A stretch of DNA of 64,000 bases from NCBI GenBank assembly GCA_964490725.1, contig CAZBDU010000014.1, forward strand, positions 8,866 to 72,865. Reading direction: 5' to 3'. Within the stretch, counting starts at the first letter, position 1. Each line of letters starts with the position of its first letter. A program made the position numbers and the translations under genes. Below, piece by piece: positions 18,394 through 54,260 of the stretch. The DNA comes from an uncultured Spirochaetaceae bacterium. GTDB lineage: Bacteria > Spirochaetota > Spirochaetia > SZUA-6 > DRHE01. Below the pieces are notes generated by a model. That model was given only the letters and a program-made list of their open reading frames with translations. It searched no databases and was not told the origin of the DNA.

Positions 18394-18456
18394 TTGTCCT
18401 GTCGCTCCAGCGGCAGTATGTTCGTGACATCTGGTTGTACCCCAGGGGGGTGGGGT
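18394..18456 (+). promoter_or_regulatory. Promoter (TTGTCC-N17-TATGTT) plus operator copy S1 TACCCCAGGGGGGTGGGGT (18438-18456)
   Basis: Read directly. The operator lies 15 nt after the -10 box and 22 nt before ATG 18479. Confidence 0.65.
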
Positions 18457-18478
18457 GATGGTTGAATGGAGGGTAGGT

Positions 18479-19594
18479 ATGGCGGTCAAGGATCCCGTCT
18501 GCGGCATGGAGATGACTCCCGAAGAGGCGATCTCCGAGGCGGAACATCAGGGCACCACGTTCTACTTCTGCTCGGAGGGGTGCCGTGACAGGTTCATGAA
18601 CGAGCATCCCTTTGACCGGCCCCGCCGCCGGTACGAGCTGGTCATCATCGGCGGGGGCCCGGCGGGGCTCACCGCGGCGGTGTATGCCGCCACCATGAAA
18701 ATCGACACATTGCTGGTCACCCGGGACATCGGGGGGCAGGCGGTGGACAGCACGAAGATCAAGAACTACATGGGCTACGACTTCATCACCGGTCCGGAGC
18801 TCACGGCCAGGTTTCGCGATCAGCTCCTGCACTCGAACTACGTGGATCACCTGCTCGGAGAGGTCGAGGTGGTGGAAGAGGCAGAGGAGGGCGGCTTCAC
18901 CGTCACGACCTCGGCCCTGGTCTCCTTTCACGCCGCCTGCGTGATCGTCGCCACCGGAATGACCAGGCGAACCCTCGGCGTGGCCGGCGAGGAGAAGTTC
19001 CAACGGCGGGGAGTATTCTACGGGAACGTGCAGGACTACTCCTTCGTGGCCGGCCGGGACGCCGTGGTCATCGGGGGCGGCAACTCCGCCCTGCAGCTCG
19101 TGGAGGACCTGCACACGGTGGCCCGCCGCATCACGCTGCTTTCGGATTTCGACCTCACCGCGGACGCAGGCCCGGTAGAGCAGGTGCGCCGCTACCGCAA
19201 CCTCACCGTCCGAGAGAACGTCAAGGTGCTGGAAATCTCCGGAGGGGAGGTGGTGGAGGAAGTGTCCTTCCGGGCCAGGGGCACGGACCGGGAAGAGCGC
19301 GAGCCCGCGCGAGGCGTATTCATCGCCATCGGGCTCAAGCCCAGCTCCGGGGTGGTGTCGTCCCTGGTGAAGTGCAACGATCGCGGTGAGATCGAGATCG
19401 ACGCCGACTGCTCCACCTCCAGACCGGGGATCTTCGCCGCGGGAGACGTCAGTACGGCTTTCGGCAAGAGGATCATCATCGCCTCCGGCGAAGGGGCCAA
19501 GGCGGCCCTGGCCGCTCGCCGGCACATTCTGGCTTTGAGGAAGGCATCCCCAGGCAGCGCAGCGGTCCCGGCGGGCGGCAGGGATTCGGTGTAG
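18479..19594 (+). CDS. YHS/TRASH domain fused to a thioredoxin-reductase-like FAD/NAD(P) oxidoreductase lacking the redox CxxC
   Basis: N-terminus MAVKDPVCGMEMTPEEAISEAEHQGTTFYFCSEGCRDRF. Then VIIGGGPAGLTAAVYA, GGGNSALQ and GIFAAGDV. Where TrxR has CATC, this protein has VFYGNVQDY. Confidence 0.85.
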   Translation: MAVKDPVCGMEMTPEEAISEAEHQGTTFYFCSEGCRDRFMNEHPFDRPRRRYELVIIGGGPAGLTAAVYAATMKIDTLLVTRDIGGQAVDSTKIKNYMGYDFITGPELTARFRDQLLHSNYVDHLLGEVEVVEEAEEGGFTVTTSALVSFHAACVIVATGMTRRTLGVAGEEKFQRRGVFYGNVQDYSFVAGRDAVVIGGGNSALQLVEDLHTVARRITLLSDFDLTADAGPVEQVRRYRNLTVRENVKVLEISGGEVVEEVSFRARGTDREEREPARGVFIAIGLKPSSGVVSSLVKCNDRGEIEIDADCSTSRPGIFAAGDVSTAFGKRIIIASGEGAKAALAARRHILALRKASPGSAAVPAGGRDSV

Positions 19595-19664
19595 TCGCTG
19601 CGGGGCTTGTCCGCATCGGAGCCTCGAGCTCCAGATGCCTCCAGATCCGAGGGAAAACTCGCCC

Positions 19665-19725
19665 TTGACTTCCAGAACAAGCGGGTCTATATTTCTAATA
19701 AGGATACCCCACGGGGGTGGGGTAT
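19665..19725 (+). promoter_or_regulatory. Promoter (TTGACT-N17-TATATT) plus operator copy S2 ATACCCCACGGGGGTGGGGTAT (19704-19725)
   Basis: Read directly. The operator starts 10 nt after the -10 box; ATG is at 19756. Confidence 0.75.
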
Positions 19726-19755
19726 CGAACGAGGCGGCGTGAACGGAGGACGAGG

Positions 19756-20262
19756 ATGGCCGAAGAGACGGGGATCGTGCTGAGCTCCACCGGCGGGAAG
19801 GCGCGGATACGGCTGAATCGCAAGTCCGAGTGCAGCACCTGCGGCGGCTGCTTTTTCAGCAAGACCGAGCGTTTCATGGTCGCGGAAGTGGAAGACACCC
19901 TGGGCGTACAGCCGGGGGACAGCGTCATGATCGCCAACCGGACCAGCGCCACCAAGGCGGGGTTCCTGCTGTACGTGCTGCCTCTGTTCGTGCTGGTAGG
20001 GGGCTACGCCGCAGGGACGGCGGTTGCGGGCGCCCTGGGCGCCACCGGGACCGACGGCTGGGGAATAGCGGCCGGATTCGTGCTGATGGCGCTGGGGTAC
20101 TTCGTGCTCTACCGGGCCCAGAAGAGGGCCGCCCGCAGGGGACCGGGCCCCATGAGGCTCGTCCGTTTGGTGAGCGGGGCGGCTCAGCGGCGCCCAAACC
20201 GGGCAGAGGCGCCGGGGAAGAGAGGCCGCGGCGAAGCGCAGGCTTCCGAAGCGGGATCATGA
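19756..20262 (+). CDS. RseC/MucC-family (SoxR-reducing-system-like) membrane protein
   Basis: Cys cluster SECSTCGGC in the N-terminal beta domain followed by two TM helices (GFLLYVLPLFVLVGGYAAG, GIAAGFVLMALGYFVLY). Same architecture as E. coli RseC. Confidence 0.7.
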   Translation: MAEETGIVLSSTGGKARIRLNRKSECSTCGGCFFSKTERFMVAEVEDTLGVQPGDSVMIANRTSATKAGFLLYVLPLFVLVGGYAAGTAVAGALGATGTDGWGIAAGFVLMALGYFVLYRAQKRAARRGPGPMRLVRLVSGAAQRRPNRAEAPGKRGRGEAQASEAGS

Positions 20263-20281
20263 GGAGCATTGGGAGGATTGC

Positions 20282-20635
20282 ATGGACGACGGAATTCACG
20301 TGCTGACGAAGAGCGCGGCGATTGCGGTGCCGCAGTCAGTGGAAGGGCAACGGAGCCTGCTGGAGGCCGCTTCCGGCATCGAAGGAGTGCAGGAGTCGCA
20401 CCTGGCGAAGGGCGAGCTGGTGGTTTCCTACGTAGCGGAGGCGGTCAGTCTCAGGATCGTGGAAGCCGAGCTGCAGAACCGGGGCTTCGAGCTCCGCCCC
20501 GTTCCCGCGAAGCGCAAGGGGTTTTTCGCCCGCTTTCTGGAGCGGACGGCGGAGAGCAACTACAGGTCCTTCGGGAGCGAGCCGCTGGACTGCTGCACGC
20601 TGCATCAGAAGAAGGCCCCGCAGCAGCGCTCCTGA
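20282..20635 (+). CDS. Hypothetical protein with an HMA-like fold lacking CxxC and a C-terminal ..GSEPLDCC motif
   Basis: GGGAGG SD. Pattern ..GIEGVQESHLAKGELVVSY..IVEAELQNRGFEL resembles a ferredoxin-like HMA fold. The only cysteines are the C-terminal CC pair. Confidence 0.5.
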   Translation: MDDGIHVLTKSAAIAVPQSVEGQRSLLEAASGIEGVQESHLAKGELVVSYVAEAVSLRIVEAELQNRGFELRPVPAKRKGFFARFLERTAESNYRSFGSEPLDCCTLHQKKAPQQRS

Positions 20636-20752
20636 GGGGCGGCAAGCGGTTTCGTTGGGCGCCTGCGGCCGCAGGGCTTGAGGTCCTCCCGGGTCCGCAG
20701 GCCGATTGAAGACGGGGTCCGAGAGAGGATAGGAACGGTGAAGCAGGCGGTG

Positions 20753-21496
20753 ATGACCGGCGCGTTCCAGCGCAGGGTTGCCCGGAAGAGCTGTCCGGCG
20801 TGCGGCGCCCGGATTCCGGGCCCCGGGTACACGCAGCACGGAGTGACCTACTGCTGCGAGAAGTGCTACTTCCGCGACCGGTTCCTGGGCGATGCGGTCA
20901 GGCACATCGAGGGCGCGTACCTGGCCACTATCGAAGCGTTGGTGGAAGCGATCGACGCGCGGGAGCACGAGGTGGGGAGCCACTCGTTCCGGGTCACGCA
21001 GTTCGCCATGGTGCTGGCGAGGCGGATGCGGATCAGCGGCAGGTCGCTGGTGACCATCTACTGCGGGTCTTTGCTGCACGACATCGGCAAGATCGGCATT
21101 CCCGACGCGATTCTCCACAAGCCCGCTGCCCTGAGCCGGGAGGAAGAGGCGGTCATGCACACCCACCCGGAGATCGGGTACCGGATCATCGGGCACATCG
21201 GCTACCTGGCCGGGGCGGCCGAGATCATACGTACCCACCACGAGCACTTCGACGGCTCCGGGTACCCCCGGGGGCTGCGAGCCGCGCAGATTCCCCTGGG
21301 AGCCCGCATTTTTGCGGCCTGCGACACCCTGGATGCGCTGACGGTGGACCGCCCGTACCGAACGGCCGAGCCCTTTCGCGCCGCCCTGGCGTACGTGCAG
21401 TCGGCCGCGGGGACGTTGTTCGATCCCGAGGTAGCGGCGGAGATGGCGGCGGCCCAGGAGGAGATGTCGCCCTATGTGGGCCGAATCATGCTCTGA
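20753..21496 (+). CDS. HD-GYP phosphodiesterase with an N-terminal Cys-rich TRASH/YHS-like module
   Basis: N-terminus SCPACGARIPGPGYTQHGVTYCCEKCYFRDRF. Then HSFRVTQFA..LLHDIGKIGIPD..HHEHFDGSGYPRGL (HD and GYP motifs). Confidence 0.85.
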   Translation: MTGAFQRRVARKSCPACGARIPGPGYTQHGVTYCCEKCYFRDRFLGDAVRHIEGAYLATIEALVEAIDAREHEVGSHSFRVTQFAMVLARRMRISGRSLVTIYCGSLLHDIGKIGIPDAILHKPAALSREEEAVMHTHPEIGYRIIGHIGYLAGAAEIIRTHHEHFDGSGYPRGLRAAQIPLGARIFAACDTLDALTVDRPYRTAEPFRAALAYVQSAAGTLFDPEVAAEMAAAQEEMSPYVGRIML

Positions 21497-27904: not shown

Positions 27905-27908
27905 CCGG

Positions 27909-28175: not shown

Positions 28176-28180
28176 CTCGT

Positions 28181-29104: not shown

Positions 29105-29116
29105 CTTCCGGCCCCC

Positions 29117-29530: not shown

Positions 29531-29598
29531 GGCTCCACCTCTCCCGTGTCCCACGTTGATGGGCAGACGGTCCCGTGTCAAGGACTTCCCCTGCGCCG

Positions 29599-29823: not shown

Positions 29824-29853
29824 AGTCTTTCGAACGCGCTCCTTCGCCGCAGC

Positions 29854-30426: not shown

Positions 30427-30491
30427 GAATCCCTCCTGGGTGGTTTCTGCCGCCAGCCGGATCCCGGCGCGGGCTATCTACCACCTGTTCA

Positions 30492-34992: not shown

Positions 34993-35010
34993 CGTCTATC
35001 TCCTTCCCGT

Positions 35011-36319: not shown

Positions 36320-36384
36320 ACACCCCACCGGGGAGGGGTATCGTACCTTTCTACAAACATAACTGCGGAACGGTCGGTTGTCAA
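36320..36384 (-). promoter_or_regulatory. Promoter (TTGACA-N17-TATGTT) plus operator copy S3 (minus-strand ATACCCCTCCCCGGTGGGGTGT, 36341-36320)
   Basis: Read directly on the reverse strand: -35 at 36384-36379 and -10 at 36361-36356. The operator lies 14 nt downstream and ATG 36246 lies 73 nt further. Confidence 0.7.
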
Positions 36385-36513: not shown

Positions 36514-36582
36514 TACCCTACCCCCCAGGGGTGCACTTTGGGTCCACCTTGATTGTATAACACACGGCAGAGGAAACTGCAA
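36514..36582 (-). promoter_or_regulatory. Second upstream promoter-like element (TTGCAG-N17-TATACA) plus operator copy S4 (minus-strand CACCCCTGGGGGGTAGGGTA, 36533-36514)
   Basis: Read directly. The site sits about 190 bp upstream of S3, in the gap after the copA stop. Confidence 0.5.
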
Positions 36583-39729: not shown

Positions 39730-39790
39730 ATACCCGACCCCCTAATGGTAATTGTGGATAGAATTTAGTGAAAGAGCCGCGGCGAGGCAA
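39730..39790 (-). promoter_or_regulatory. copA promoter candidate (TTGCCT-N17-TAAATT) plus degenerate operator copy S8 (minus-strand TACCATTAGGGGGTCGGGTAT, 39750-39730)
   Basis: Read directly. The site matches about 16 of 21 positions of the consensus from the other copies. The region is locally AT-rich. Confidence 0.45.
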
Positions 39791-40333: not shown

Positions 40334-40389
40334 TTGACACTTTTCAGGAACTGGACTAAGCTGCATTCCATACCCCAGGGGGGTAGGGT
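40334..40389 (+). promoter_or_regulatory. Promoter (TTGACA-N17-TAAGCT) plus operator copy S5 TACCCCAGGGGGGTAGGGT (40371-40389)
   Basis: Read directly. The operator starts 8 nt after the -10 box. Confidence 0.7.
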
Positions 40390-40448
40390 CAAAATCGCGT
40401 CGCCGCTGAAGCCGGTGTGGGCGAATGTACGTCGAGGAGGGACATGCA

Positions 40449-41441: not shown

Positions 41442-41478
41442 TGCAACTGCGAGGACATAGAAGAGCGGGGGAGGGCGG

Positions 41479-42801: not shown

Positions 42802-42802
42802 A

Positions 42803-43774
42803 ATGGCTGAAGAGAAGCTTCCCGTCCTGACCGTTTCCTCCTCACCCCACGCCCGGGGGCCCGAATCGGTGCGCCGCATCATGGCCAGCGTGCTGGTCTG
42901 TCTGCTGCCGGCGGTGGTCTACAGCGTGGTTCGGTTTGGCGCCCACGTGGCGCTCATGTACGCAGTGGCCGTGGCCACCTGCCTGGCGGCGGAGGCAGGG
43001 GCGGTGCGTCTGCGCGGGCGCCCCTTCACCCTGGGCGACCTGAGCGCCGTGGTGACGGGGGTGTTGCTGGTGATGACCCTGCCACCTCGGTTTCCTATCT
43101 ACGGGGTGGTCCTGGGCGCCGCCGTGGCGATCGTGATCGGCAAGCAGATCTTCGGAGGCCTGGGGCACAACATCTTCAACCCCGCGCTGGTGGGGCGGGC
43201 CTTCCTGGCCGCCACCTACCCGGTGTTCATCTCGGACTTCTCCCTGGCGGCGGACGCCACCACCGGGGCCACGCCGCTGGCCGCCGCCAAGTTCGACGGG
43301 GTGTCCACGCCGCTCCAGGGATTGTTCCTGGGCACCGTGAGCGGCTCGGTGGGAGAGACCAGCGCGCTGCTGCTCCTGGCCGGCTCGGTGTACCTGTTCG
43401 CCCGCGGCTACCTCAAGTGGCGGATTCCGCTTGCCATCGCAGTGACTGTCGCGATCCTCGGCCAGGCATTTCACTTCCTCGCGCCCCAGCGCTATCCCGA
43501 TGCATTGCATCACCTCCTGGCCGGGGGTCTTTTTCTGGGGGCTCTCTACATGGCGACCGACCCGGTCACCTCGCCCCTGAGCGCGCGGGGCGGGGTGATC
43601 TTCGGCGTCGGCATCGGAATACTGGTGGTGGTGATCCGGCTGTTCGGAGGGCTGCCCGAGGGGATGATGTACGCGGTGCTCCTGATGAACTCAGGCGTGC
43701 CCCTCATCAACAGGGGCACCAGGCCGCGCATCCTGGGAGAGCGGCCGCCTGCGGCCGCGGGAGGCCGACGGTGA
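42803..43774 (+). CDS. rnfD: Rnf complex subunit D
   Basis: Polytopic NqrB/RnfD-type protein with the ..YMATDPVTSP.. motif. Confidence 0.9.
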   Translation: MAEEKLPVLTVSSSPHARGPESVRRIMASVLVCLLPAVVYSVVRFGAHVALMYAVAVATCLAAEAGAVRLRGRPFTLGDLSAVVTGVLLVMTLPPRFPIYGVVLGAAVAIVIGKQIFGGLGHNIFNPALVGRAFLAATYPVFISDFSLAADATTGATPLAAAKFDGVSTPLQGLFLGTVSGSVGETSALLLLAGSVYLFARGYLKWRIPLAIAVTVAILGQAFHFLAPQRYPDALHHLLAGGLFLGALYMATDPVTSPLSARGGVIFGVGIGILVVVIRLFGGLPEGMMYAVLLMNSGVPLINRGTRPRILGERPPAAAGGRR

Positions 43775-43788
43775 GCGCCGCAGGCGGC

Positions 43789-44397
43789 ATGAAAGTGCGC
43801 GGCGCCAACCGGGTGCGGATGGTGGTGGTTCTCACCGTAATCGCCCTGGTCTCCGGGGGAGTGCTGGCTCTGACCTACCTGGTGAGCAGCCCGGCCATCC
43901 AGGCGAACCAGGCGGAATCCCTGCGCAGGTCCATCTACGAGGTGGTCTCCGGCGTGTCGAAGTACCAGGAGAAGAGCCGCGACGGGATGACCTACTTCGA
44001 GTGCCGGGACGCGGCGGGAAAGCTGGCCGGCTACGCCCTGCCGGCTGAAGGCAACGGCTACCAGGGCACCATCCGGCTCATGATCGGCGTGAGCGCGGAC
44101 CTGGCGACCATCACCGGGCTGGAGGTGTTGGAGCAGGTGGAGACCCCCGGCCTGGGCGGCAGGATCGGGGAGAAGGCCTTCCAGGATCAGTTCCGGGGAC
44201 TGCCCACCCAGCCGCCCATCACCTACGTGAAGAACAAGAAGCCCCAGGGGCCGGCGGAGATCCAGGCCATCACCGGCGCCACCATCTCCACCCGGTCCAC
44301 CGTGGCCATCGTGAACCGCAAGCTGGAGGAGGCCAGGCGAGTCCTCGCCGGGGCCGGCGGGGTGGCCGCGGCGGGCGGGCAGGGAAAGGACCGGTAA
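43789..44397 (+). CDS. rnfG: Rnf complex subunit G (FMN-binding)
   Basis: N-terminal TM anchor, then ..QAITGATISTRS.. flavinylation motif. GTG 43771, which overlaps the rnfD stop, is an alternative start. Confidence 0.85.
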   Translation: MKVRGANRVRMVVVLTVIALVSGGVLALTYLVSSPAIQANQAESLRRSIYEVVSGVSKYQEKSRDGMTYFECRDAAGKLAGYALPAEGNGYQGTIRLMIGVSADLATITGLEVLEQVETPGLGGRIGEKAFQDQFRGLPTQPPITYVKNKKPQGPAEIQAITGATISTRSTVAIVNRKLEEARRVLAGAGGVAAAGGQGKDR

Positions 44398-44399
44398 CC

Positions 44400-45098
44400 A
44401 TGGGCGACCGACTGCTGAAGCAAGGACCGCGCCGCAGGGGACTTTTGGAGCTGGCCAAGGGGTTCTGGCGGGAGAACCCCGTGCTGGTGACGGTGCTGGG
44501 CCTGTGTCCCACCCTGGCGGTGACCACTTCCGCGGTGAACGCCCTCACCATGGGGCTGGCGGTGGTGTTCGTGCTCACCGCCTCCAGCGCGATCGTCTCC
44601 CTGATCCGGAATCTTGTGCCCAGACAGGTGCGGATCGCCTCCTTCATCCTGATCATCGCCACCTTCGTAACCATGGTGGACCTGTTTCTGAAGGCCTACT
44701 TTCTGCCTCTCAGCCGGGCGCTGGGACCGTACGTGCCGCTGATCGTGGTGAACTGCATCATCCTGGGACGGGCGGAGTCCTTTGCCTCCAAGAACGGGGT
44801 GGGCCTGTCCATCCTGGACGCCCTGGGCATGAGCCTGGGGTTCACCGCCACCCTCATCGTCCTGGGAGGGATCCGGGAGGTGCTGGGGCAGCGCACCTTC
44901 TTCGGGCTTTCGGTGCTGGGCCAGGGCTTCGAGCCCTGGGTCATCATGATCCTTCCGCCGGGGGCGTTCATCACCCTGGGCTTCCTGCTGGGGGGGAAGA
45001 ACCTGATCGATCGCACTCGCCGGCGCCGGAAGGAGGAGCGGGAGGCTGCAGCCGGCGCCGGCGCGGCGCAGCCGGCGGAGGAGAAGCGGCCGGCATGA
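44400..45098 (+). CDS. rnfE: Rnf complex subunit E
   Basis: ..NPVLVTVLGLCPTLAVT.. is typical of RnfE/NqrD. Confidence 0.9.
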   Translation: MGDRLLKQGPRRRGLLELAKGFWRENPVLVTVLGLCPTLAVTTSAVNALTMGLAVVFVLTASSAIVSLIRNLVPRQVRIASFILIIATFVTMVDLFLKAYFLPLSRALGPYVPLIVVNCIILGRAESFASKNGVGLSILDALGMSLGFTATLIVLGGIREVLGQRTFFGLSVLGQGFEPWVIMILPPGAFITLGFLLGGKNLIDRTRRRRKEEREAAAGAGAAQPAEEKRPA

Positions 45099-45117
45099 GG
45101 GTGGAGGAGAGCGAGCG

Positions 45118-45696
45118 ATGGGGTTGATCCTGATCTTCATCTCCGCGGTGCTGGTGAACAACTTCGTTCTCAGCTACTTCCTGGGCATCTGCCCGTTCCT
45201 GGGCGTGTCCGGGAAGATCGACTCCGCGGTGAGCATGGGCATGGCAGTGACCTTCGTGCTCACCCTGACGGCGGCCATCACCTGGTTGATCAACCGCTAC
45301 ATCCTGGTGGCGCTGGGCCTTCCCTTTCTGGAGTACGTGTCCTTCATCATCGTGATCGCCGCGCTGGTCCAGTTCGTGGAGATGTTCATCCGCAAGACCA
45401 GCAAGGCCCTCTACGACGCGCTGGGGATCTTTCTGCCCCTGATCACCACCAACTGCGCCATTCTGGGGCTGGCCCTGTTCGGGGCCCTGCGGGAGTACGG
45501 GTTTATCCAGAACGTGGTGTTCGGCATCGGGGCGGGGGGTGGATTCACCCTGGCGCTGGTGATCATGGCGGGCATCCGCGAGCAGCTGGAGCTGGCGGAC
45601 GTCCCTGAGTCCCTGAAAGGGGCGGCCATCACGCTGATCATCGCCGGGCTGCTGGCCCTGGCGTTCATGGGCTTCGCCGGGCTGATCTCGGCGTGA
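45118..45696 (+). CDS. rnfA: Rnf complex subunit A
   Basis: ..VLVNNFVLSYFLGICPFLGVS.. is typical of RnfA/NqrE. Confidence 0.9.
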   Translation: MGLILIFISAVLVNNFVLSYFLGICPFLGVSGKIDSAVSMGMAVTFVLTLTAAITWLINRYILVALGLPFLEYVSFIIVIAALVQFVEMFIRKTSKALYDALGIFLPLITTNCAILGLALFGALREYGFIQNVVFGIGAGGGFTLALVIMAGIREQLELADVPESLKGAAITLIIAGLLALAFMGFAGLISA

Positions 45697-45766
45697 AGAC
45701 CTTTGGCGGGCCGCAGCCCGCTCCCCGGTTCGGCGCCGGGGCGGGTGGCGGCGAGAGAGGTTCGTG

Positions 45767-46633
45767 ATGACGATATTGATTGTTTCCCTGGGAAGCATGG
45801 GCGGCATCGGGCTGATCCTGGCCCTGCTGCTGGTCCTGGCGGACCGGCAGCTGGCCGTGAAGGAAGATCCCAGGTTCGAGGAGGCGCTGTCCATCCTTCC
45901 CGGGCTCAACTGCGGCGCCTGCGGCTATCCGCAGTGCTCCGTGTATCTGTCCGCGGTCATGGGCGAGCAGGCGGAGGCCAACCTGTGCAAGCCGGGAGGG
46001 CCGGAGGTGGCCGCGAGACTTGCCGGGTTCCTGGGCGTCGAGGCGGGGACCGTCACCCAGGAGGTGGCGCGGGTGTGCTGCAGCGGCGGCGACCGCGAGG
46101 CGGTGCGCACCCGGGTCTACAACGGCGTGAAGAGCTGCGCCGCGGCCAACCTGGTGGGCGGAGAGAAGGCCTGCCTTTATTCATGCCTGGGCTACGGGGA
46201 CTGCGTGGACTCCTGCCCCTTCGACGCCATCCACATGGGGGAGAACTGCCTGCCGGTGGTGGACCTGGCGAAGTGTACGGGATGCGGCAACTGCGTGGTG
46301 GCCTGCCCGCGGGACATCATTACCCTGGCGGGCTACGAGGAGGCGGTCCACGTGTACTGCATCTCCCGGGACCGGGGGGCGGAGGTGCGCAAGATCTGTA
46401 GCGCCGGCTGCATCGCCTGCAAGCTCTGCGAGAAGGACGACACCACCGGGGCCGTGAAGATCGTGGACAACCTGGCGGTGATCGACTTCTCGGTGCACCC
46501 TGCCCCGGTGGACTCGATTCGCCGCTGTCCCACCAAGGTGATCCGCGTCTCGGAGCCGGTGCCAGGTTTCCAGCCGCGGCGGGCCGAGGCCGCGGCAGCC
46601 GTCGGCGGGCAGGGAGGCCGCAAAGAATCATAG
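45767..46633 (+). CDS. rnfB: Rnf complex subunit B (polyferredoxin)
   Basis: N-terminal TM segment, LPGLNCGACGYPQC, and ferredoxin motifs CLGYGDCVDSCP and CTGCGNCVVACP. Confidence 0.9.
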   Translation: MTILIVSLGSMGGIGLILALLLVLADRQLAVKEDPRFEEALSILPGLNCGACGYPQCSVYLSAVMGEQAEANLCKPGGPEVAARLAGFLGVEAGTVTQEVARVCCSGGDREAVRTRVYNGVKSCAAANLVGGEKACLYSCLGYGDCVDSCPFDAIHMGENCLPVVDLAKCTGCGNCVVACPRDIITLAGYEEAVHVYCISRDRGAEVRKICSAGCIACKLCEKDDTTGAVKIVDNLAVIDFSVHPAPVDSIRRCPTKVIRVSEPVPGFQPRRAEAAAAVGGQGGRKES

Positions 46634-46654
46634 AGGAAGCGAGGAGGTATCGAG

Positions 46655-46969
46655 ATGAGGATACTGACCGTTTTGTTGTCGTGCCTGGTCCTTCTGGGCG
46701 CGGCGTCCGTCGTGTACGGGCACGAGGGTGAGGAGCACGAGGCACCTCAGAAGGTCACGAGCGCCGTCATGAGCGGCTCTCACGACGAGGGGCAGGCCGG
46801 GGGCGAGGAGGAGCACTCCGAGGCGGTGGAGGCGGACTTTCAGACCATCCGGCAGGAGGTGTCTGCCTCCACTGCGTTCATCGTCATCAAGGCGCTGGCC
46901 CTGGCGGCGGCAATCGCGGGGATCGGGCTGGTGTATCTGACCCGCCGCAGGAGCGGAGAGACAAGATGA
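46655..46969 (+). CDS. Small secreted His/Glu-rich protein with a C-terminal TM anchor
   Basis: AGGAGG SD and a signal peptide. Contains HEGEEHE..SGSHDEGQAGGEEEHSE. C-terminal helix AFIVIKALALAAAIAGIGLVYL. Confidence 0.6.
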   Translation: MRILTVLLSCLVLLGAASVVYGHEGEEHEAPQKVTSAVMSGSHDEGQAGGEEEHSEAVEADFQTIRQEVSASTAFIVIKALALAAAIAGIGLVYLTRRRSGETR

Positions 46970-47979
46970 GCGCCGGCGACGCGTCTGAAGGCAAGGAGTG
47001 GAGACTCACAGACTTCGACTACGAGGTGCCGGAAAACGCCGAGCGGTTCGGCTACAGCGTCGGGGGAGTCACCCTGGTGGGACTGCTTCTGCTCATCCTC
47101 ACCGGGATCATCATGACCTTCTTCTACACCCCGACGGTGGATGAAGCGCGGGGGAGCGTCCTGGCCCTGAGCTCTCACCCGGGAGGACTGTGGTTGCGCT
47201 CGTTCCACCGCTGGACTGCAGAGGCGGTGATCTTTCTGCTGATCCTGCACATTACCAGGGTGGTGTTCACCGGGTCTTACCGCGGCAGGCGTACGCTGAA
47301 CTGGCTTTTCGGTGTGCTGCTGCTGTTCGTGACCATGGGATTCTTCTTCTCCGGGACCGTGTTGAAGTGGGATCAGGAGGGATACGAGGCGTACCAGCAC
47401 GCCGTGGAGGCCATGGAGCTGGTCCCCCTGGTGGGGGCCGCGCTGGCTTCGGTCATAACCGGCCTCCCCGCGGTGGCGCGATTCTACGCCACCCACACGC
47501 TGGTGCTCCCGGCCCTGCTTCTCCTGCTTCTTACCCCGCACCTGGTGCTGATGAAGCTGAACGGGCTTTCAACCCTGCCGGGGGAAAGCTCGCCGCGGAC
47601 CAGCTCCTTCTTCCATCATCTGAAGCGAGTGCTGGCCTTCAGCCTGATCGTCTACGGAGTGATGGCGTTTCTGGCCGCCCTGTTTCCGGCCAGCCTGTAT
47701 CCCGGGCCGTACACCGGCGTTGAGATGACCAAGCCGCCGTGGGCGTTCCTGGTCCTTTACGCTCTGGAGGATTGGATCGGCCTCAAGGCGCTGCTGGTGG
47801 CTCCGGTGGTGCTTCTGGTGGGGCTGGTCGTGATCCCCTTCATCGACCGCAGAGCGTCCCTGAGCTCAGCGGCGCGGAAGCTCATCGTCTGGGGCTACGT
47901 TTTCGTCGCCGCCGTGGTGATCTTTCTGATCGTCTACGTCGGCCTCACCCCGCCGGTGACCCATCTGGGCATGGATTGA
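46966..47979 (+). CDS. Di-heme cytochrome b (bc1/b6-type N-terminal domain homolog)
   Basis: His pairs SFHRW-x-LILH (H-x13-H) and ATHTLVLPALLLLLLTPH (H-x14-H) in TM helices. ATGA overlap with the upstream gene. Confidence 0.8.
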   Translation: MSAGDASEGKEWRLTDFDYEVPENAERFGYSVGGVTLVGLLLLILTGIIMTFFYTPTVDEARGSVLALSSHPGGLWLRSFHRWTAEAVIFLLILHITRVVFTGSYRGRRTLNWLFGVLLLFVTMGFFFSGTVLKWDQEGYEAYQHAVEAMELVPLVGAALASVITGLPAVARFYATHTLVLPALLLLLLTPHLVLMKLNGLSTLPGESSPRTSSFFHHLKRVLAFSLIVYGVMAFLAALFPASLYPGPYTGVEMTKPPWAFLVLYALEDWIGLKALLVAPVVLLVGLVVIPFIDRRASLSSAARKLIVWGYVFVAAVVIFLIVYVGLTPPVTHLGMD

Positions 47980-48539
47980 TGGGGAAGCGGCTGCGCTTGT
48001 TCGGGTTGAGAGGGGCTCCCCGCGCCGGCGGCTCCGGCCGCGGGGAGTCCCTCCGCGAGGAGCGCATCCGGAGCCGGCCCGCCGACGGTGAGCCCGCGGA
48101 GGTGGTTGCCGTTCACGGCGGGAGGGCTATCCTGCGGCTGGCCGCCGGCTCGGGATGCGAGAAGTGCCGCCTGTGCAGGCGGGTCTCCTCAGAGGAGATG
48201 GCCCTGTCGGCGCGCTGCGATCCCGGGCTCCGGCCCGGGGACCGCGGAACGGTATTCGTGGATCCGGCGGTGCGGGTCCGGGCCGCGCTGGTCCTGTTCT
48301 TGGCCCCCCTGGCGGCGCTGGTGGGCGGCTACTTCGCCGGCGCCATCCTGGCCCGCGTGACCGGCCTGGGAGGAGGCGGAGAGCTCCTGCCGGCGCTGGT
48401 AGGGCTGGCCTCTCTGGCGGCCAGCTTCCTGCCGATTCATCGCTACGACCGTCGCAAGCGGTCGGACCCGCGGTTTGCCCTCCATTTCTGGGTCACCGGG
48501 CGGTCTTCGGTGGGCGCAGAGGCGTACCGCGGCGATTGA
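47979..48539 (+). CDS. RseC/MucC-family membrane protein (copy 2)
   Basis: ..AEVVAVHGGRAILRLAAGSGCEKCRLC.. followed by two TM helices. TGATG overlap with the cytochrome b stop. Confidence 0.65.
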   Translation: MGKRLRLFGLRGAPRAGGSGRGESLREERIRSRPADGEPAEVVAVHGGRAILRLAAGSGCEKCRLCRRVSSEEMALSARCDPGLRPGDRGTVFVDPAVRVRAALVLFLAPLAALVGGYFAGAILARVTGLGGGGELLPALVGLASLAASFLPIHRYDRRKRSDPRFALHFWVTGRSSVGAEAYRGD

Positions 48540-51725: not shown

Positions 51726-51977
51726 CTACTCCGCCACCTTGCGGACGAAGATGCTCCAGGCCGAGGGCGCCTGCTGGCGGACCGCCAGCACCTGCTGGCC
51801 GGCCAGCTTCAGGCTGTGAGGCACGTTTTCCACGGCCGTCGCGTTGTCCACGGTGATCTTCAGCACCTGGCCGATCTGCATCTCCTCCAGGGTGATGCGG
51901 CTCTTGACGAACGTGTAAGGGCAGACCTCACCCCTGAGATCCAGGTCGAAGTCTGCCACGATCTGCTCTTCCGCCAT
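51726..51977 (-). CDS. TusA/SirA-family sulfurtransferase (copy 2)
   Basis: LDLRGEVCPYTFVKSRITLEEM. Confidence 0.8.
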   Translation of the reverse strand: MAEEQIVADFDLDLRGEVCPYTFVKSRITLEEMQIGQVLKITVDNATAVENVPHSLKLAGQQVLAVRQQAPSAWSIFVRKVAE

Positions 51978-52016
51978 TCGCTCTTTCCTCCCTGTTCCGG
52001 CGAACCGGCGCGAGTC

Positions 52017-52838
52017 TCACGGGCAGGCCGCCTTTCCCCCCTGCCCGCAGGCCGCGGGTTGCTCCACGTCGGCTATCTCCCTCATCGTGGGCCGCTCGCC
52101 GCACGCCGGGCAGTCCGGGTCGCGGGGCACCGCCACGCAGGTGTAATCCATCGTCAGGGCGTCCACGAACAGCATCCTGTCCACCAGAAGCTCGCCGATG
52201 CCCAGCAGGTACTTGAGCGCCTCCGCCGCCTGGATCGTACCCAGCATTCCGGCCACGGCGCCCAGCACGCCCGCTTCCGCGCAGCTTGGCACCGATCCGG
52301 CCGGGGGCGGGGTCTGGCAGACGCAGCGGTAGCAGGCGCTGCCGGGCACGTGGGTCATGGTCTGCCCGCAGTAGCGCAGGATGCCGGCCAGGGAGAAGGG
52401 CTTTCCCAGGAGCACGCAGGCGTCGCTGATCAGGAACTTGGCGGGGAAGTTGTCCGTACCTTCCACCACGAAGTCGTAGTCCCGGAGGATGCCCGCAATG
52501 TTGGCCGCGGTGAGCCGGCCGGGATGCGTTCTCACCGCCACCTCCGGGTTGAGCTGGCGCAGCTTGGCCCTGGCGGAGTCTACCTTGAAGGCGCCCACGT
52601 CCGGGGTGAAGTGCAGGATCTGGCGCTGCAGGTTGCTCAGGTCCACCGTGTCGCCGTCTGCGATCCCCAGGGTTCCCACCCCTGCGGCGGCCAGGTAGTA
52701 GGCGGCAGGCGAGCCCAGCCCGCCGGCGCCTGCCACCAGGACCCGGGACTGCTGCAGTCTCCTCTGCCCTTTTCCGCCGACGTCGGGCAGCAGGATGTGC
52801 CGGCTGTAGCGGACGATCTGCTCTTCCGTGAAACCCAA
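52017..52838 (-). CDS. ThiF/MoeB-family E1-like adenylyltransferase (copy 2; close paralog of 25806-26645)
   Basis: (M)GFTEEQIVRYSRHILLPDVGGKGQRRL..GAGGLGSP..CYRC..CPACG. I chose TTG 52838 because GGAG lies 7 nt upstream and the N-terminus then matches the paralog. Confidence 0.9.
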   Translation of the reverse strand: MGFTEEQIVRYSRHILLPDVGGKGQRRLQQSRVLVAGAGGLGSPAAYYLAAAGVGTLGIADGDTVDLSNLQRQILHFTPDVGAFKVDSARAKLRQLNPEVAVRTHPGRLTAANIAGILRDYDFVVEGTDNFPAKFLISDACVLLGKPFSLAGILRYCGQTMTHVPGSACYRCVCQTPPPAGSVPSCAEAGVLGAVAGMLGTIQAAEALKYLLGIGELLVDRMLFVDALTMDYTCVAVPRDPDCPACGERPTMREIADVEQPAACGQGGKAACP

Positions 52839-52854
52839 GGCCACGCTCCAAGTC

Positions 52855-52874
52855 TACCCCAGGGGGGTGGGGTA
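52855..52874 (-). promoter_or_regulatory. Operator copy S6 TACCCCAGGGGGGTGGGGTA, 17 nt upstream of the thiF-2 start
   Basis: Read directly. It matches the plus-strand consensus exactly, so it is inverted relative to the gene it precedes. I found no clear -35/-10 pair upstream. Confidence 0.6.
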
Positions 52875-53062
52875 GCGCAAGCCCGGTATGCCCGACGCCG
52901 CGGCCGCAGGGGCGCGGCAGCGCCGGAATCCTCCTGCCTCGCGGTCTGGGCGGGCCGCACCCCTCCGCGCCGGGCTGTGGGCCGGAGGGACGCCGGCAGG
53001 CAGGTCCGCGCTTCCGGCGGGGCTGCGGTCCTCGCCCTGCGGCGGCCCTCCACAGGGCAGGC

Positions 53063-53458
53063 TCAGAAGCTGTAGGCGTCCACCGGCCGGGCGCCTCCGC
53101 CCTGGACCTGGATAAGAACCCCGTGGGGGAGACAGGCGATCCACTGTCCGGGACGGCTGACCGCGTCGCTGCGCACGCAGATCTGACGGGGACAGGAAGA
53201 ACGGATCACCCGGGCTTCCCCGTCGGCTATGGCCACCACGCAGCTGCCCGGGGGCCCGGCGCCGGCGAAAACCCTGTCCTCCCGCAGCGGGAAGATCCAC
53301 TCCCCCTGGGCAGAGCGGATGGTCACCTCAGGGTCGCGCGAGGGCCTGGCGTAGGCTCCGGCGGCCGAGAGGACCACCACCGCTGCGGCCAGCAGGACGG
53401 CGGCCAAGTCGAGGGGCCGAAGCCGCGGCCGCCACCGTCCGCGCCGGGCAGGAGGCAT
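53063..53458 (-). CDS. NusG domain II-containing membrane-anchored protein (DUF1312-like)
   Basis: TM anchor LDLAAVLLAAAVVVLSAAG, then ..VIRSSCPRQICVRSDAVSRPGQWIACLPHGVLIQV. Confidence 0.6.
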   Translation of the reverse strand: MPPARRGRWRPRLRPLDLAAVLLAAAVVVLSAAGAYARPSRDPEVTIRSAQGEWIFPLREDRVFAGAGPPGSCVVAIADGEARVIRSSCPRQICVRSDAVSRPGQWIACLPHGVLIQVQGGGARPVDAYSF

Positions 53459-53459
53459 G

Positions 53460-54101
53460 TCAGCGGCCACCGGCGCCTCGCGGCTGGCTTCCCTGCTTGC
53501 GGGCCACAACAAGCCTGACCACGTCCAGAAAGAGGTGCTCCGCCCGCTCGATCTGGAACCCCGCCGCGGCAATGTTGCTCTGGGTCTCCCGGAGCATGGA
53601 GGTGCCCAGGGCGCGCACGCTGTAGACGTCCATCAGGCGCAGGAAGAGGTTCACCAGGGGGCTCTCGCTTTTCATGTGCTCCAGGAACACGGCCCGGCCC
53701 GCCGGTTGGAGGACCCGGTACACCTCCCTGAGGCCCTGCAGCGGGTCCGGGACGGTGCAGAAGACGAAGGTGCTGATCACGGTTGCGAAGGTGTCGTCCG
53801 CGAAGGCCAGCTCCTGCACGTCCATTTCCAGGAGCTTGACGTTGGCCAGGCCCAGGCGTTCTTTCTTCTCCGCCGCCTTCTCCAGCATGCCGGGACTGAA
53901 ATCCACGGCCGTCACGTCGGTTCCCGGGGGGTAGTGAGGCAGGTTCTTCCCCGTGCCCACCCCGACCTCCAGCACCGGGCCGCGCACCAGGGACAGCGCC
54001 CGCTGCCGGAGGCGCCGGAAGAGGAGCCCCTCGACGATGCCCTCCATCCGGTCGTAATGCCGCGCTGCGCGGTCGTACTTCTCGATCGTGCTCGTTTCCA
54101 T
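53460..54101 (-). CDS. Class I SAM-dependent methyltransferase (UbiE/Methyltransf_11-like)
   Basis: VLEVGVGTGKNL..AVDFSPGMLEKA..ADDTFATVISTF. Confidence 0.85.
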   Translation of the reverse strand: METSTIEKYDRAARHYDRMEGIVEGLLFRRLRQRALSLVRGPVLEVGVGTGKNLPHYPPGTDVTAVDFSPGMLEKAAEKKERLGLANVKLLEMDVQELAFADDTFATVISTFVFCTVPDPLQGLREVYRVLQPAGRAVFLEHMKSESPLVNLFLRLMDVYSVRALGTSMLRETQSNIAAAGFQIERAEHLFLDVVRLVVARKQGSQPRGAGGR

Positions 54102-54204
54102 GCTCCCGTGCTCCTGGAGGAACCGCGCCGGCAGCCTGCGGAAGGGCAGGCGGCACGTCCCGGTCGCCTAATAACCTACTGCCCAACAAGCGGGCGCGGC
54201 AAGG

Positions 54205-54260
54205 TTGACTGACCGTGCGCGGCGGCAGTATACTCAAGATACCCCAGGGGGGTGGGGTGT
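54205..54260 (+). promoter_or_regulatory. Promoter (TTGACT-N18-TATACT) plus operator copy S7 ATACCCCAGGGGGGTGGGGTGT (54239-54260)
   Basis: Read directly. The operator starts 4 nt after the -10 box. Confidence 0.75.

What the first reader, a model, noticed from the sequence alone, without database searches (positions are those of the whole stretch)
18394..54260. Eight copies of one 19-22 bp G/C-rich pseudo-palindrome, seven behind recognisable promoters: a large putative metal regulon with no matching repressor gene in the window
Sites, written in the orientation of the gene they precede:
- S1 18438 TACCCCAGGGGGGTGGGGT
- S2 19704 ATACCCCACGGGGGTGGGGTAT
- S3 36341(-) ATACCCCTCCCCGGTGGGGTGT
- S4 36533(-) CACCCCTGGGGGGTAGGGTA
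- S5 40371 TACCCCAGGGGGGTAGGGT
- S6 52855 TACCCCAGGGGGGTGGGGTA
- S7 54239 ATACCCCAGGGGGGTGGGGTGT
- S8 39750(-) TACCATTAGGGGGTCGGGTAT (degenerate)

Seven of the eight lie 4-20 nt downstream of a TTGACx-N17/18-TAxxxT promoter, which is the classic position for a repressor. All are intergenic. As I recall it, the motif resembles the TACCC-N4/5-GGGTA type operators of CsoR/RicR, and CstR uses similar sites. The downstream genes are copA, YHS proteins, RseC, an unknown vWA operon, a CCAHH membrane protein with rnf, thiF-tusA and an ABC exporter. No DUF156/CsoR-like ORF is visible anywhere in the 64 kb.
Basis: partly seen in the sequence, partly recalled or inferred. Interest (0 to 1): 0.85.

Follow-up and report, generated by a model that had tools for sequence, protein, structure and literature searches.

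The report
Expanded CsoR copper-repressor regulon island
Seven strong copies and one weak copy of a textbook CsoR copper-repressor binding site sit at promoters across a 36-kb gene island, and the repressor gene lies just 7 kb outside the window, so this is a known type of switch controlling an unusually broad gene set.

Summary
Seven near-identical 20-bp boxes (TACCCCA-N6-TGGGGTA) lie at the stated coordinates. None is expected by chance, all are intergenic, and similarity is confined to the box and the promoter hexamers. The eighth box, upstream of copA, is degenerate and not significant on its own.

The CsoR attribution is supported:
- The box fits the published CsoR operator type, a G-tract pseudopalindrome with TAC/GTA dyads.
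- A scan of 185,579 species genomes with the box gave 60 loci. In 33 of them the box lies directly beside csoR, copZ or copA.
- All but one of the 20 csoR-family genes extracted from those loci carry the Cu(I) ligand set C-H-C.

The window itself holds no csoR. A canonical one (146 aa, PF02583, Y-C…H-x3-C) lies 7.2 kb upstream of window position 1. It sits on an assembly contig identical to the window where they overlap.

What is unusual is the breadth of targets:
- copA
- a YHS-flavoprotein
- rseC, an LDCC protein and an HD-GYP protein
- an unknown protein plus vWA pair
- an uncharacterised "CCAHH" membrane protein followed by rnfCDGEAB, cytochrome b and rseC
- thiF-tusA
- a MacB-type ABC exporter with a YHS domain

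Verdict: an ordinary mechanism with an unusually large, clustered regulon. Regulation itself is inferred and was not tested.

The parts
18438..18457 (.). S1, a CsoR-type operator (TACCCCAGGGGGGTGGGGTG). It lies 15 nt after a TTGTCC-17-TATGTT promoter-like site (18394-18422) and 21 nt before the ATG of the YHS-flavoprotein gene.
   Evidence: 30.2 bits. Hexamers were read.
19705..19724 (.). S2, a perfect palindromic operator (TACCCCACGGGGGTGGGGTA). It lies 11 nt after the TTGACT-17-TATATT promoter at 19665-19693.
   Evidence: (30.9 bits).
36321..36340 (.). S3, an operator 15 nt after the TTGACA-17-TATGTT promoter (36384-36356, minus strand). It lies 74 nt before the start of the unknown 411-aa gene.
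   Evidence: (24.0 bits).
36514..36533 (.). S4, a second operator 193 bp upstream of S3. It lies 20 nt after a TTGCAG-17-TATACA site (36582-36554, minus strand) that has an upstream TG.
   Evidence: (27.3 bits).
39731..39750 (.). S8, a degenerate box (TACCATTAGGGGGTCGGGTA). It lies 11 nt after TTGCCT-17-TAAATT (39790-39762, minus strand) and 57 nt before the copA ATG. It is a weak candidate only.
   Evidence: (14.1 bits, within the chance range).
40371..40390 (.). S5, an operator 8 nt after TTGACA-17-TAAGCT (40334-40362). It lies 55 nt before the CCAHH membrane protein gene.
   Evidence: (29.1 bits).
52855..52874 (.). S6, a perfect palindromic operator 16 nt upstream of the thiF start (TTG at 52838, GGAG ribosome-binding site at 52846-52849). 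No promoter is recognisable. It may act as a roadblock inside a longer minus-strand operon.
   Evidence: (32.1 bits).
54240..54259 (.). S7, an operator 5 nt after the TTGACT-18-TATACT promoter (54205-54234) of the ABC exporter. On the minus strand it forms the spacer of a possible divergent promoter, TTGAAC-17-TATCTT.
   Evidence: (30.2 bits).
18479..19594 (+). Target 1: a YHS domain fused to a thioredoxin-reductase-like flavoprotein. The CxxC redox motif is replaced, as read from the translation.
19756..21496 (+). Target 2: rseC (19756-20262), an LDCC-motif metal-binding protein (20282-20635) and an HD-GYP protein with a Cys-rich N-terminus (20678-21496). Whether ftsH, the methyltransferase and the rhodanese downstream belong to this unit is unknown.
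33652..36246 (-). Target 3: an unknown 411-aa protein (35011-36246) and a vWA-domain protein (33652-34992).
   Evidence: A homologous pair follows a csoR-family gene in L143.
36701..39673 (-). Target 4: a CopA-type P1B ATPase with cupredoxin-like, HMA and C-terminal YHS domains.
40446..48539 (+). Target 5: the CCAHH membrane protein (40446-41441), rnfCDGEAB (41479-46633), a 104-aa His/Glu-rich membrane protein, cytochrome b (46966-47979) and rseC (47979-48539). The gap between the CCAHH gene and rnfC is 37 nt with no terminator, so co-transcription is inferred.
   Evidence: The Rnf subunit names are read from the translations and were not scanned against Pfam.
51726..52838 (-). Target 6: thiF/moeB-like gene (52017-52838) and tusA (51726-51977).
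   Evidence: ThiF and TusA Pfam hits were seen on the paralogues.
54375..56371 (+). Target 7: a MacB/FtsX-type permease (about 54375-55484) and an ABC ATPase with a C-terminal YHS domain (55523-56371).

Best explanation
The boxes are operators for a Cu(I)-sensing CsoR repressor. Its gene lies on the same contig, 7.2-7.7 kb upstream of window position 1.

**Mechanism (inferred).** In low copper, apo-CsoR sits on each G-tract pseudopalindrome; published work shows two tetramers per operator. The boxes begin 5-20 nt after the -10 hexamer, so they cover the transcription start or the early transcribed region and block initiation or promoter escape. When Cu(I) binds the Cys47/His72/Cys76 site, CsoR leaves the DNA and seven or eight transcription units are derepressed together.

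**Predicted targets.** These are copper efflux (CopA and a MacB-type ABC exporter with YHS), copper-binding proteins (YHS and LDCC proteins), a membrane redox block (CCAHH protein, Rnf, cytochrome b, RseC), a ThiF-TusA sulfur relay, and an unknown protein plus vWA pair.

**Shown.** The sites, their positions, their identity with csoR- and cop-linked boxes elsewhere, and the presence and ligand set of the regulator.

**Inferred.** Binding, copper response, operon extents, and what the non-efflux targets do.
For: 1. Seven sites score 24-32 bits against a best of 18 bits in shuffles. All are intergenic in a region that is about 90% coding.
2. Each site except S6 follows a sigma-70-like -35/-10 pair with a 17-18 nt spacer.
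3. The box fits the published CsoR operator definition (PMC3902906).
4. A scan of GTDB species genomes with TACCCCANGGGGGTNGGGT gave 60 loci.
   - In 33 the box directly abuts csoR, copZ or copA.
   - 20 carry a csoR-family gene within the 8-kb locus (E <= 1e-3).
   - Several of the remaining loci have the match inside long open reading frames, as chance matches would.
5. Of the 20 csoR-family genes extracted from those loci, all but one (L061) have the C…H-x3-C ligands.
6. A csoR gene lies at L062 positions 44-484. L062 positions 7719-18500 are identical to window positions 1-10782.
7. The same protein is recorded on an NCBI contig of 89,615 bp. That is the contig length recorded for two window proteins.
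8. This protein scores 93 bits on PF02583 (cut-off 22.8) and conserves Y46, C47, H72 and C76.
9. Relatives show the same promoter-operator architecture.
   - In L153 a box follows the csoR promoter, and further boxes precede a YHS gene and a CBS-CGL pair.
   - In L151 a G/C pseudopalindrome follows the promoter of the closest csoR homologue (62% identity), which has the same csoR/ATPase/SHOCT synteny.
   - In L073 a near-identical box overlaps the -10 hexamer upstream of a CCAHH homologue.
10. Target genes co-localise with csoR, copA and YHS genes in other organisms: 80 loci with CCAHH relatives, and csoR followed by an unk411 homologue and a vWA gene in L143.
Against: - No binding or expression data exist.
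- The DNA upstream of csoR is not available; only 43 nt lie before the ATG on the assembly contig. Autoregulation in this organism therefore could not be checked.
- S8, at copA, the canonical target, is the weakest site and is at chance level by score.
- S6 has no promoter.
- The rest of the genome was not available, so a second CsoR-family paralogue that might own some or all of the boxes cannot be excluded.
- Linkage of Rnf to a CsoR box or to the CCAHH gene was not seen in any of the 80 related loci. That part of the regulon rests on a 37-nt gap alone.
- Homologues of the unknown 411-aa gene in five other loci have no box.
Confidence: 0.8

Rival explanations
1. The boxes belong to a different CsoR-family paralogue encoded elsewhere in the genome, for example a persulfide-sensing CstR. 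The island would then respond to reactive sulfur species rather than to copper, or to both.
For: Published cst operators, such as ATATACCCTTATGGGGTATAT, resemble CsoR boxes, so the operator sequence alone does not discriminate (PMC8643695). thiF-tusA is a target. TusA, DsrE, rhodanese and sulfite reductase genes fill the island. In L153 a box precedes a CBS-CGL pair.
Against: The only family member found on the contig has the histidine that CstR lacks (x-C-H-C). Exact matches to the box elsewhere sit beside C-H-C CsoR genes and cop genes. Most targets carry copper-binding domains: YHS, HMA, LDCC and the CopA signature.
Confidence: 0.1
2. The palindromes act in the RNA, as 5'-UTR hairpins that stabilise transcripts or attenuate them, and are not protein-binding DNA sites.
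For: The boxes fall at or just after the predicted transcription starts. Several fold into 7-10 bp hairpins (S2, S3, S7).
Against: The fold differs between sites: S4 and S5 pair differently, S8 forms no such hairpin, and most z-scores are unremarkable. The G-rich strand is the sense strand at six sites but the antisense strand at S3 and S6, so loop sequences differ. No Rfam family matches. The same box elsewhere marks csoR and cop promoters.
Confidence: 0.03
3. The boxes are a dispersed repeat (REP or MITE-like element) or chance G/C-rich palindromes with no shared function.
For: The genome is 68% G+C, so G/C-rich words are common.
Against: No matches are expected in shuffles. Similarity stops at the box edges. 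All sites are intergenic and lie next to promoter-like sites.
Confidence: 0.01

Closest known systems
Streptomyces lividans CsoR and its three type-2 operators (csoR, copZA1, copZA2) (PMC3902906)
   Same: The operator is a G-tract pseudopalindrome with conserved TAC/GTA dyads. The repressor belongs to the same Pfam family and has C-H-C ligands. The published model has two tetramers per operator, released by Cu(I).
   Different: Here there are seven or eight operators, not three. The box is the longer form, TACCCCA-N6-TGGGGTA, and S4 and S5 also contain an inner TAC-N9-GTA. Most targets are not cop genes. csoR is not adjacent to any target seen here. The helix α1 motif reads R-L-R-N where the published motif is R-L-x-R.
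[quoted passage not shown]
   Same: The repressor type and the box type are the same. Dual sites in one upstream region, as with S3 and S4, are common in that study.
   Different: That study found that csoR and copA make up more than 90% of CsoR-regulated promoters. Here copA has the weakest box. The strong boxes serve YHS, RseC, Rnf, ThiF-TusA, ABC and unknown genes. S3 and S4 are 193 bp apart and each has its own promoter, whereas the published spacings are 26-51 bp.
Mycobacterium tuberculosis RicR regulon (PMC3944814)
   Same: A CsoR paralogue controls several dispersed promoters through one palindromic motif. The five published loci (ricR, lpqS, mymT, socAB, Rv2963) mostly lack classical cop genes.
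   Different: None of the target genes is shared. The RicR loci are scattered, whereas these are clustered within 36 kb. The organism here is an uncultured high-GC bacterium.
CstR persulfide sensors of Staphylococcus, Enterococcus and Streptococcus (PMC8643695)
   Same: The protein family is the same and the operator is similar. The targets include sulfur-transfer genes of the TusA, rhodanese and DsrE kinds.
   Different: CstR has x-C-x-C ligands and does not respond to Cu(I). The regulator found here has x-C-H-C, and most targets carry copper-binding domains.

Membership tests
CsoR type-2 operator (DNA site) | G/C-tract pseudopalindrome flanked by inverted TAC/GTA dyads | tested here: met
   The consensus is TACCCCAGGGGGGTGGGGTA. 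S2 and S6 are perfect 7-6-7 palindromes with outer TAC…GTA dyads. S4 and S5 contain an inner TAC-N9-GTA, and in S4 the outer 5' dyad reads CAC. The definition is taken from PMC3902906.
CsoR type-2 operator (DNA site) | Lies at or overlaps the promoter of the regulated gene | tested here: met
   The box starts 5-20 nt after a -10-like hexamer at seven of eight sites. S6 is the exception.
CsoR type-2 operator (DNA site) | The same box is linked to csoR, copZ or copA in other genomes | tested here: met
   In 33 of 60 exact-match loci from GTDB species genomes the box directly abuts csoR, copZ or copA. 20 loci hold a csoR-family gene within 8 kb.
CsoR type-2 operator (DNA site) | Bound by apo-CsoR and released by Cu(I) | not testable with these tools
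   This needs EMSA, ITC or footprinting with the contig's CsoR.
CsoR/RcnR family, Cu(I)-sensing group (the regulator at L062 44-484) | Matches Pfam PF02583 above the gathering score | tested here: met
   93.3 bits against a cut-off of 22.8. The precomputed PF02583 assignment for P0009 agrees.
CsoR/RcnR family, Cu(I)-sensing group (the regulator at L062 44-484) | x-C-H-C ligand set (Mtb C36, H61, C65) with the preceding Tyr | tested here: met
   Y46, C47, H72 and C76 are invariant in the alignment with Mtb CsoR and five homologues. The classification is from PMC8643695.
CsoR/RcnR family, Cu(I)-sensing group (the regulator at L062 44-484) | R-L-x-R DNA-contact motif in helix α1 | tested here: inconclusive
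   The sequence reads R-L-R-N before IEGQ. The first Arg is kept and the fourth position is Asn, while Mtb CsoR has R-L-K-T. The motif is described in PMC3902906.
CsoR/RcnR family, Cu(I)-sensing group (the regulator at L062 44-484) | csoR next to copA/copZ and autoregulated | tested here: inconclusive
   csoR is convergent with an HMA-less P-type ATPase and a SHOCT gene, and the closest homologue has the same synteny. The region upstream of csoR is not available, with only 43 nt on the contig. Homologues in L153 and L151 do have a palindrome behind their promoter.
CstR (persulfide-sensing CsoR paralogue) | x-C-x-C ligands, lacking the Cu(I)-ligating His | tested here: not met
   The regulator on the contig has His72. 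A second paralogue elsewhere in the genome could not be searched for.

The most novel reading that the evidence does not exclude
In this uncultured high-GC bacterium, CsoR has been expanded from a copA switch into the master regulator of a clustered copper island of about 36 kb. On this reading the island couples copper sensing to three further functions:
- a membrane redox module (an uncharacterised CCAHH/CrdA-like membrane protein, Rnf, cytochrome b, RseC and a YHS-flavoprotein);
- a ThiF-TusA sulfur relay;
- an unknown protein plus vWA pair.

This would imply a copper-defence strategy not yet described. Examples are electron-driven handling of copper at the membrane, or sulfur-based sequestration or repair. 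The CCAHH family would be a new class of copper-handling membrane protein.
Probability: 0.25. Interest if true: 0.65.

Novelty: new member of a known kind. Interest (0 to 1): 0.45.

Why it matters
**What is ordinary.** The switch itself is ordinary: a CsoR repressor acting on CsoR boxes.

**What could matter.** CsoR regulons described so far are small and centred on csoR and copA, which make up more than 90% of regulated promoters in gut Firmicutes (PMC4938975). The multi-locus RicR regulon of M. tuberculosis is the main exception.

Here seven strong boxes mark genes nobody has tied to copper:
- an Rnf complex with two RseC proteins and a cytochrome b;
- a TrxR-like flavoprotein with a YHS domain;
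- a ThiF-TusA pair;
- a rare protein plus vWA pair.

If copper induction is confirmed, these become candidates for how anaerobes protect or rebuild redox and sulfur chemistry under copper stress.

**A separate lead.** The CCAHH membrane protein has no Pfam or NCBIfam family. It has invariant Cys-Cys-x-His and Gly-Gly-His-His motifs. It is fused to HMA or YHS domains in some relatives, and it recurs beside csoR, copA and YHS genes in many metagenomes.

Tried and rejected
**Searches that found nothing**
- tblastn with Mtb CsoR, B. subtilis CsoR, RcnR and FrmR found no CsoR in the window. A 25-sequence profile against six-frame ORFs also found none in the window, but it did find csoR in the left flank.
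- The exact-protein look-up of that CsoR, meant to fetch its upstream DNA, returned 'not on record'. The cluster look-up gave no accession or organism. Autoregulation and taxonomy therefore stay open.
- The window's genome is not among the GTDB species representatives, because no locus reproduced the window's sites. A genome-wide count of boxes was therefore impossible.
- The flanks contain no further box. These are 7.7 kb to the left (L062) and 7.8 kb to the right (L148).
- Rfam gave no match.

**Explanations considered and dropped**
- RNA hairpins were considered and rejected.
- A mobile-repeat explanation was rejected by the flank alignment.
- In-window regulators were considered as owners of the box and set aside:
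  - Rrf2 (29117-29530) sits inside the cysteine-synthesis operon.
  - MerR (5108-5533) pairs with its own ATPase, and MerR sites lie between the -35 and -10 hexamers.
  - GntR (8130-8864) lies in the low-GC island.
  - None of these is linked to a box.
- The 455-bp copA-unk411 spacer was checked for a decayed csoR, because L143 has a csoR-family gene in that slot. No trace was found.

**Comparisons that did not carry over**
- Homologues of the 411-aa protein in L144-L147, L149 and L150 have no box or csoR.
- csoR-linked CCAHH loci from lower-GC organisms, such as L071, lack this box form.
- None of the 80 CCAHH loci links the gene to rnf.

Full report
**1. The observation**

The window is about 68% G+C, apart from an island of 52-57% G+C at 8-16 kb. 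The pattern TACCCCNNNNNNGTNGGGT has 7 matches on 6 sites, with none in 100 dinucleotide-preserving shuffles. The symmetric form TACCCCANNNNNNTGGGGTA, allowing up to 3 mismatches, recovers S1-S7.

A weight matrix built from the seven sites scores them 24.0-32.1 bits. The best score in 20 shuffled windows is 18.1 bits, and nothing else in the 64 kb exceeds 12.6 bits. S8, upstream of copA, scores 14.1 bits. That is within the chance range, so only its position speaks for it.

An alignment of the eight sites with 50-nt flanks shows similarity only in the 20-bp box and the promoter hexamers. The boxes are therefore not copies of a mobile repeat.

**2. Gene map**

Candidate ORFs were picked by third-position G+C content. 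They were annotated with Pfam and NCBIfam and with independent gene calls on identical assembly contigs.

| Site | Downstream genes |
|---|---|
| S1 | YHS domain fused to a thioredoxin-reductase-like flavoprotein (18479-19594) |
| S2 | rseC, an 'LDCC motif putative metal-binding protein' (NF040898), and an HD-GYP protein |
| S4, S3 | an unknown 411-aa protein and a vWA protein (36246-33652, minus strand) |
| S8 | copA with cupredoxin-like, HMA and YHS domains |
| S5 | a membrane protein with the motif MIACCAHH, then rnfCDGEAB, a small membrane protein, cytochrome b and a second rseC |
| S6 | thiF-tusA |
| S7 | a MacB/FtsX permease and an ABC ATPase with a C-terminal YHS domain |

On this map the stretch 17.4-56.4 kb is about 90% coding, and all eight boxes are intergenic.

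**3. Promoters**

The strict consensus scan reports promoters only for S2, S3 and S7. Reading the sequence gives the following:

| Site | -35, spacer, -10 | Gap from -10 to box |
|---|---|---|
| S1 | TTGTCC-17-TATGTT | 15 nt |
| S2 | TTGACT-17-TATATT | 11 nt |
| S3 | TTGACA-17-TATGTT | 15 nt |
| S4 | TTGCAG-17-TATACA, with an upstream TG | 20 nt |
| S5 | TTGACA-17-TAAGCT | 8 nt |
| S7 | TTGACT-18-TATACT | 5 nt |
| S8 | TTGCCT-17-TAAATT | 11 nt |

S6 has no promoter. It lies 16 nt from the thiF start, downstream of a NusG_II-domain gene and a methyltransferase gene on the same strand.

S7 also forms the 17-nt spacer of a possible minus-strand promoter, TTGAAC-17-TATCTT, facing that methyltransferase. 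One box may therefore serve both divergent units, with S6 as a second block further down. This last point is inference.

**4. What the box is**

The published description of CsoR operators fits. They are G-tract pseudopalindromes in which a TAC/GTA inverted repeat is essential, with two tetramers bound per operator (PMC3902906).

As an independent test I scanned one genome per species (185,579 species) for TACCCCANGGGGGTNGGGT, which gave 60 loci. Local tblastn gave these results:
- 20 loci hold a csoR-family gene within the 8 kb fetched (E <= 1e-3), usually 20-120 bp from the box.
- In 33 loci the box directly abuts csoR, copZ or copA.
- The hosts include Actinomycetota, Bacillota, Spirochaetia and Pseudomonadota.
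- In several of the remaining loci the match lies inside a long ORF with high third-position G+C, as expected for the chance background.

Of the 20 csoR-family genes extracted from those loci, all but one (L061) carry the Cys…His-x3-Cys set. The literature assigns that set to Cu(I) sensors (x-C-H-C). Persulfide-sensing CstR is x-C-x-C and is not released by Cu(I) (PMC8643695).

**5. The missing repressor**

The window has no CsoR-family ORF. The Logan assembly of run SRR14802574 holds contigs identical to parts of the window.

Contig L062 overlaps window positions 1-10782 with no mismatch and extends 7.7 kb further left. A profile search of its six-frame ORFs hit L062 2-481 at E = 1.9e-28. The gene (ATG at position 44, stop at 484) encodes 146 aa:
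- It contains …[30 protein letters not shown]…RQHLNGCV….
- It has a 45-aa Gly/Ala/Pro-rich tail that contains Cys-Cys.
- It scores 93 bits on PF02583.
- It conserves Y46, C47, H72 and C76.

So csoR lies on the window's own contig, about 26 kb from S1.

csoR is convergent with an HMA-less P-type ATPase and a SHOCT gene. Its upstream DNA could not be fetched, so autoregulation is untested here. The 7.8 kb to the right of the window holds neither a csoR nor a box.

**6. Relatives**

- **L151/L152.** The closest CsoR homologue (62% identity) has the same csoR/ATPase/SHOCT synteny. A TTGACG-17-TATCTT promoter is followed 7 nt later by ACACCCCCACCCGGTGTGT.
- **L153.** This is an NCBI MAG of 69% G+C, with a homologue at 55% identity. 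TTGACA-17-TACGTT is followed 8 nt later by TACCCCCCTGGGGT, upstream of csoR. TACCCTACCCCCCTGGGGTG lies upstream of a YHS gene. TATACT is followed 16 nt later by TACCCCACCGGGGTGAGGTT, just before a cystathionine-β-synthase-like and γ-lyase-like gene pair.
- **L143.** In a second MAG, a csoR-family gene (C…H-x3-C) sits between a gene running off the contig end and the homologues of the 411-aa and vWA genes. In the window that slot, between copA and unk411, is 455 bp and holds only the S4 and S3 promoter-operator units.
- **L073.** This 48% G+C contig has TTGACA-17-TATTAT overlapping ACCCTAGGGGGGTAAGGTA, about 350 bp upstream of a CCAHH homologue. A second box lies elsewhere on the contig.

The promoter-operator architecture and the link between these target families and CsoR thus recur. 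The exact target set does not:
- Other homologues of the 411-aa gene lack boxes.
- None of the 80 CCAHH loci carries rnf.

**7. Mechanism and confidence**

The best-supported reading is classical CsoR repression at seven or eight promoters, relieved by Cu(I). I put this at 0.8.

The main rival is that a second CsoR-family paralogue, possibly sulfur-sensing, owns the boxes. I put this at 0.1, because the rest of the genome could not be searched and sulfur-relay genes are among the targets.

RNA hairpins are unlikely. The folds are inconsistent, two sites have the opposite strand orientation, and Rfam has no match. Repeat or chance explanations are excluded.

**8. Comparison and novelty**

The system works like, and by the tested criteria belongs with, CsoR repressor-operator systems.

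It differs in scale and content. Published CsoR regulons are dominated by csoR and copA (PMC4938975). The five-locus RicR regulon is the known multi-target case (PMC3944814). A full-text search found ten papers that mention both CsoR and the Rnf complex, and none is about such a link judging by title and abstract; I did not read them.

I rate it a new member of a known kind with an unusually broad, clustered target set. Interest is moderate.

**9. Side finding: the CCAHH protein**

The CCAHH protein has no Pfam or NCBIfam match. All 53 database relatives are unnamed or 'hypothetical', apart from two domain-level labels (MFS family permease, YHS domain-containing protein). A few are fused to HMA or YHS domains.

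Invariant residues include M-I-A-C-C-x-H in a transmembrane helix, and T-H, W and G-G-H-H in the C-terminal domain. The AlphaFold model has a mean pLDDT of 84. It shows several N-terminal helices followed by a β-sandwich domain. The best PDB match of that domain is the H. pylori copper-resistance protein CrdA, at a borderline E = 5e-4.

Among 80 metagenomic loci with relatives, 11 hold a csoR-family gene, 13 a full-length copA, and at least 27 hold small YHS or HMA genes.

Noticed in passing
window 40446-41441 (+); relatives L063-L142, P0129-P0181: An uncharacterised membrane protein family with invariant MIACCxH, NTH, W and GGHH motifs. It has no Pfam or NCBIfam model. Some relatives are fused to HMA or YHS domains, and the family recurs beside csoR, copA and YHS genes. 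The modelled C-terminal β-domain weakly resembles H. pylori CrdA (E = 5e-4).
   Followed up: partly
window 33652-36246 (-); L143 2157-5290: The unknown 411-aa protein belongs to a very rare family, with 8 proteins among 5.8 billion clusters. Its C-terminal ~110 aa resemble the N-terminal part of the adjacent vWA protein, by reading the translations. One relative carries this region fused to a Ser/Thr kinase. In one MAG the gene pair directly follows a csoR-family gene.
   Followed up: partly
window 36247-36700: The 455-bp spacer between copA and the 411-aa gene holds two complete promoter-operator units (S4, S3) 193 bp apart. A 32-codon ORF lies between them (GTG at about 36484, MKTRDNKRDKYIPAFCYGWLTALYDPRQRWS). 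In L143 the slot upstream of the homologous gene pair holds a csoR-family gene. No csoR remnant was detected here.
   Followed up: partly
L062 44-484 (7.2-7.7 kb left of window position 1): The CsoR has an unusual 45-aa Gly/Ala/Pro-rich C-terminal tail containing Cys-Cys. Its closest homologues (91-113 aa) lack this tail. Its gene is convergent with an HMA-less P-type ATPase and a SHOCT mini-protein, and that synteny is conserved in L151/L152.
   Followed up: partly
window 18479-19594 (+): The YHS-flavoprotein matches thioredoxin reductase and AhpF models. Where those enzymes have the redox-active CxxC it reads GVFYGNVQDYSF, so it probably does not reduce disulfides. It may instead be ferredoxin-NADP-reductase-like.
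   Followed up: no
window 25378-33267: A box-free sulfur block lies between the regulon units. It has DsrE-like, TusA, Rrf2 regulator, CysK-like, ThiS, O-acetylhomoserine sulfhydrylase, ThiF and JAB genes on the minus strand. This looks like a protein-thiocarboxylate route to cysteine or homocysteine. It faces a sulfite reductase fused to TusA on the plus strand, with strong divergent promoters at 30492-30568.
   Followed up: no
window 815-5533 (-): A second metal system without a CsoR box: a MerR-family regulator (5108-5533), an HMA P-type ATPase (2859-5111), a thioredoxin/AhpC-like protein and a DsbD-like membrane protein. Together with the ATPase beside csoR, the contig carries three P-type ATPases.
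   Followed up: no
window about 8000-16800: An island of lower G+C (52-57% against about 68%). It carries a GntR/FCD regulator, a three-subunit molybdopterin dehydrogenase (Fer2, FAD-binding and MoCo subunits), an HMGL-like enzyme, an Nramp transporter and an OYE-type flavoenzyme. It is possibly horizontally acquired.
   Followed up: no
window 54238-54266 (-): S7 forms the spacer of a possible minus-strand promoter, TTGAAC-17-TATCTT, facing the methyltransferase, NusG_II, thiF and tusA gene string. One operator may therefore control both divergent units.
   Followed up: no
L153 15597-15650: In a 69% G+C MAG, a CsoR-type box sits 16 nt after a TATACT hexamer. It lies directly before a cystathionine-β-synthase-like (PALP-CBS) and Cys_Met_Meta_PP gene pair. 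This is a second hint that CsoR boxes reach sulfur metabolism in this group.
   Followed up: no
window 39974-40258 (+): A 94-codon ORF with a good AGGAGG ribosome-binding site lies between the copA promoter and the S5 promoter. It has no family match.
   Followed up: no
window 49274-51526 (-); L073, L082: A PtsP-like protein with a PEP-utilising enzyme region and an N-terminus that looks GAF-like (read from the translation, not scanned against Pfam). It lies between the rnf block and thiF-tusA and has its own promoter-like site (51562-51533). Homologues sit next to CCAHH genes in two metagenome contigs.
   Followed up: no
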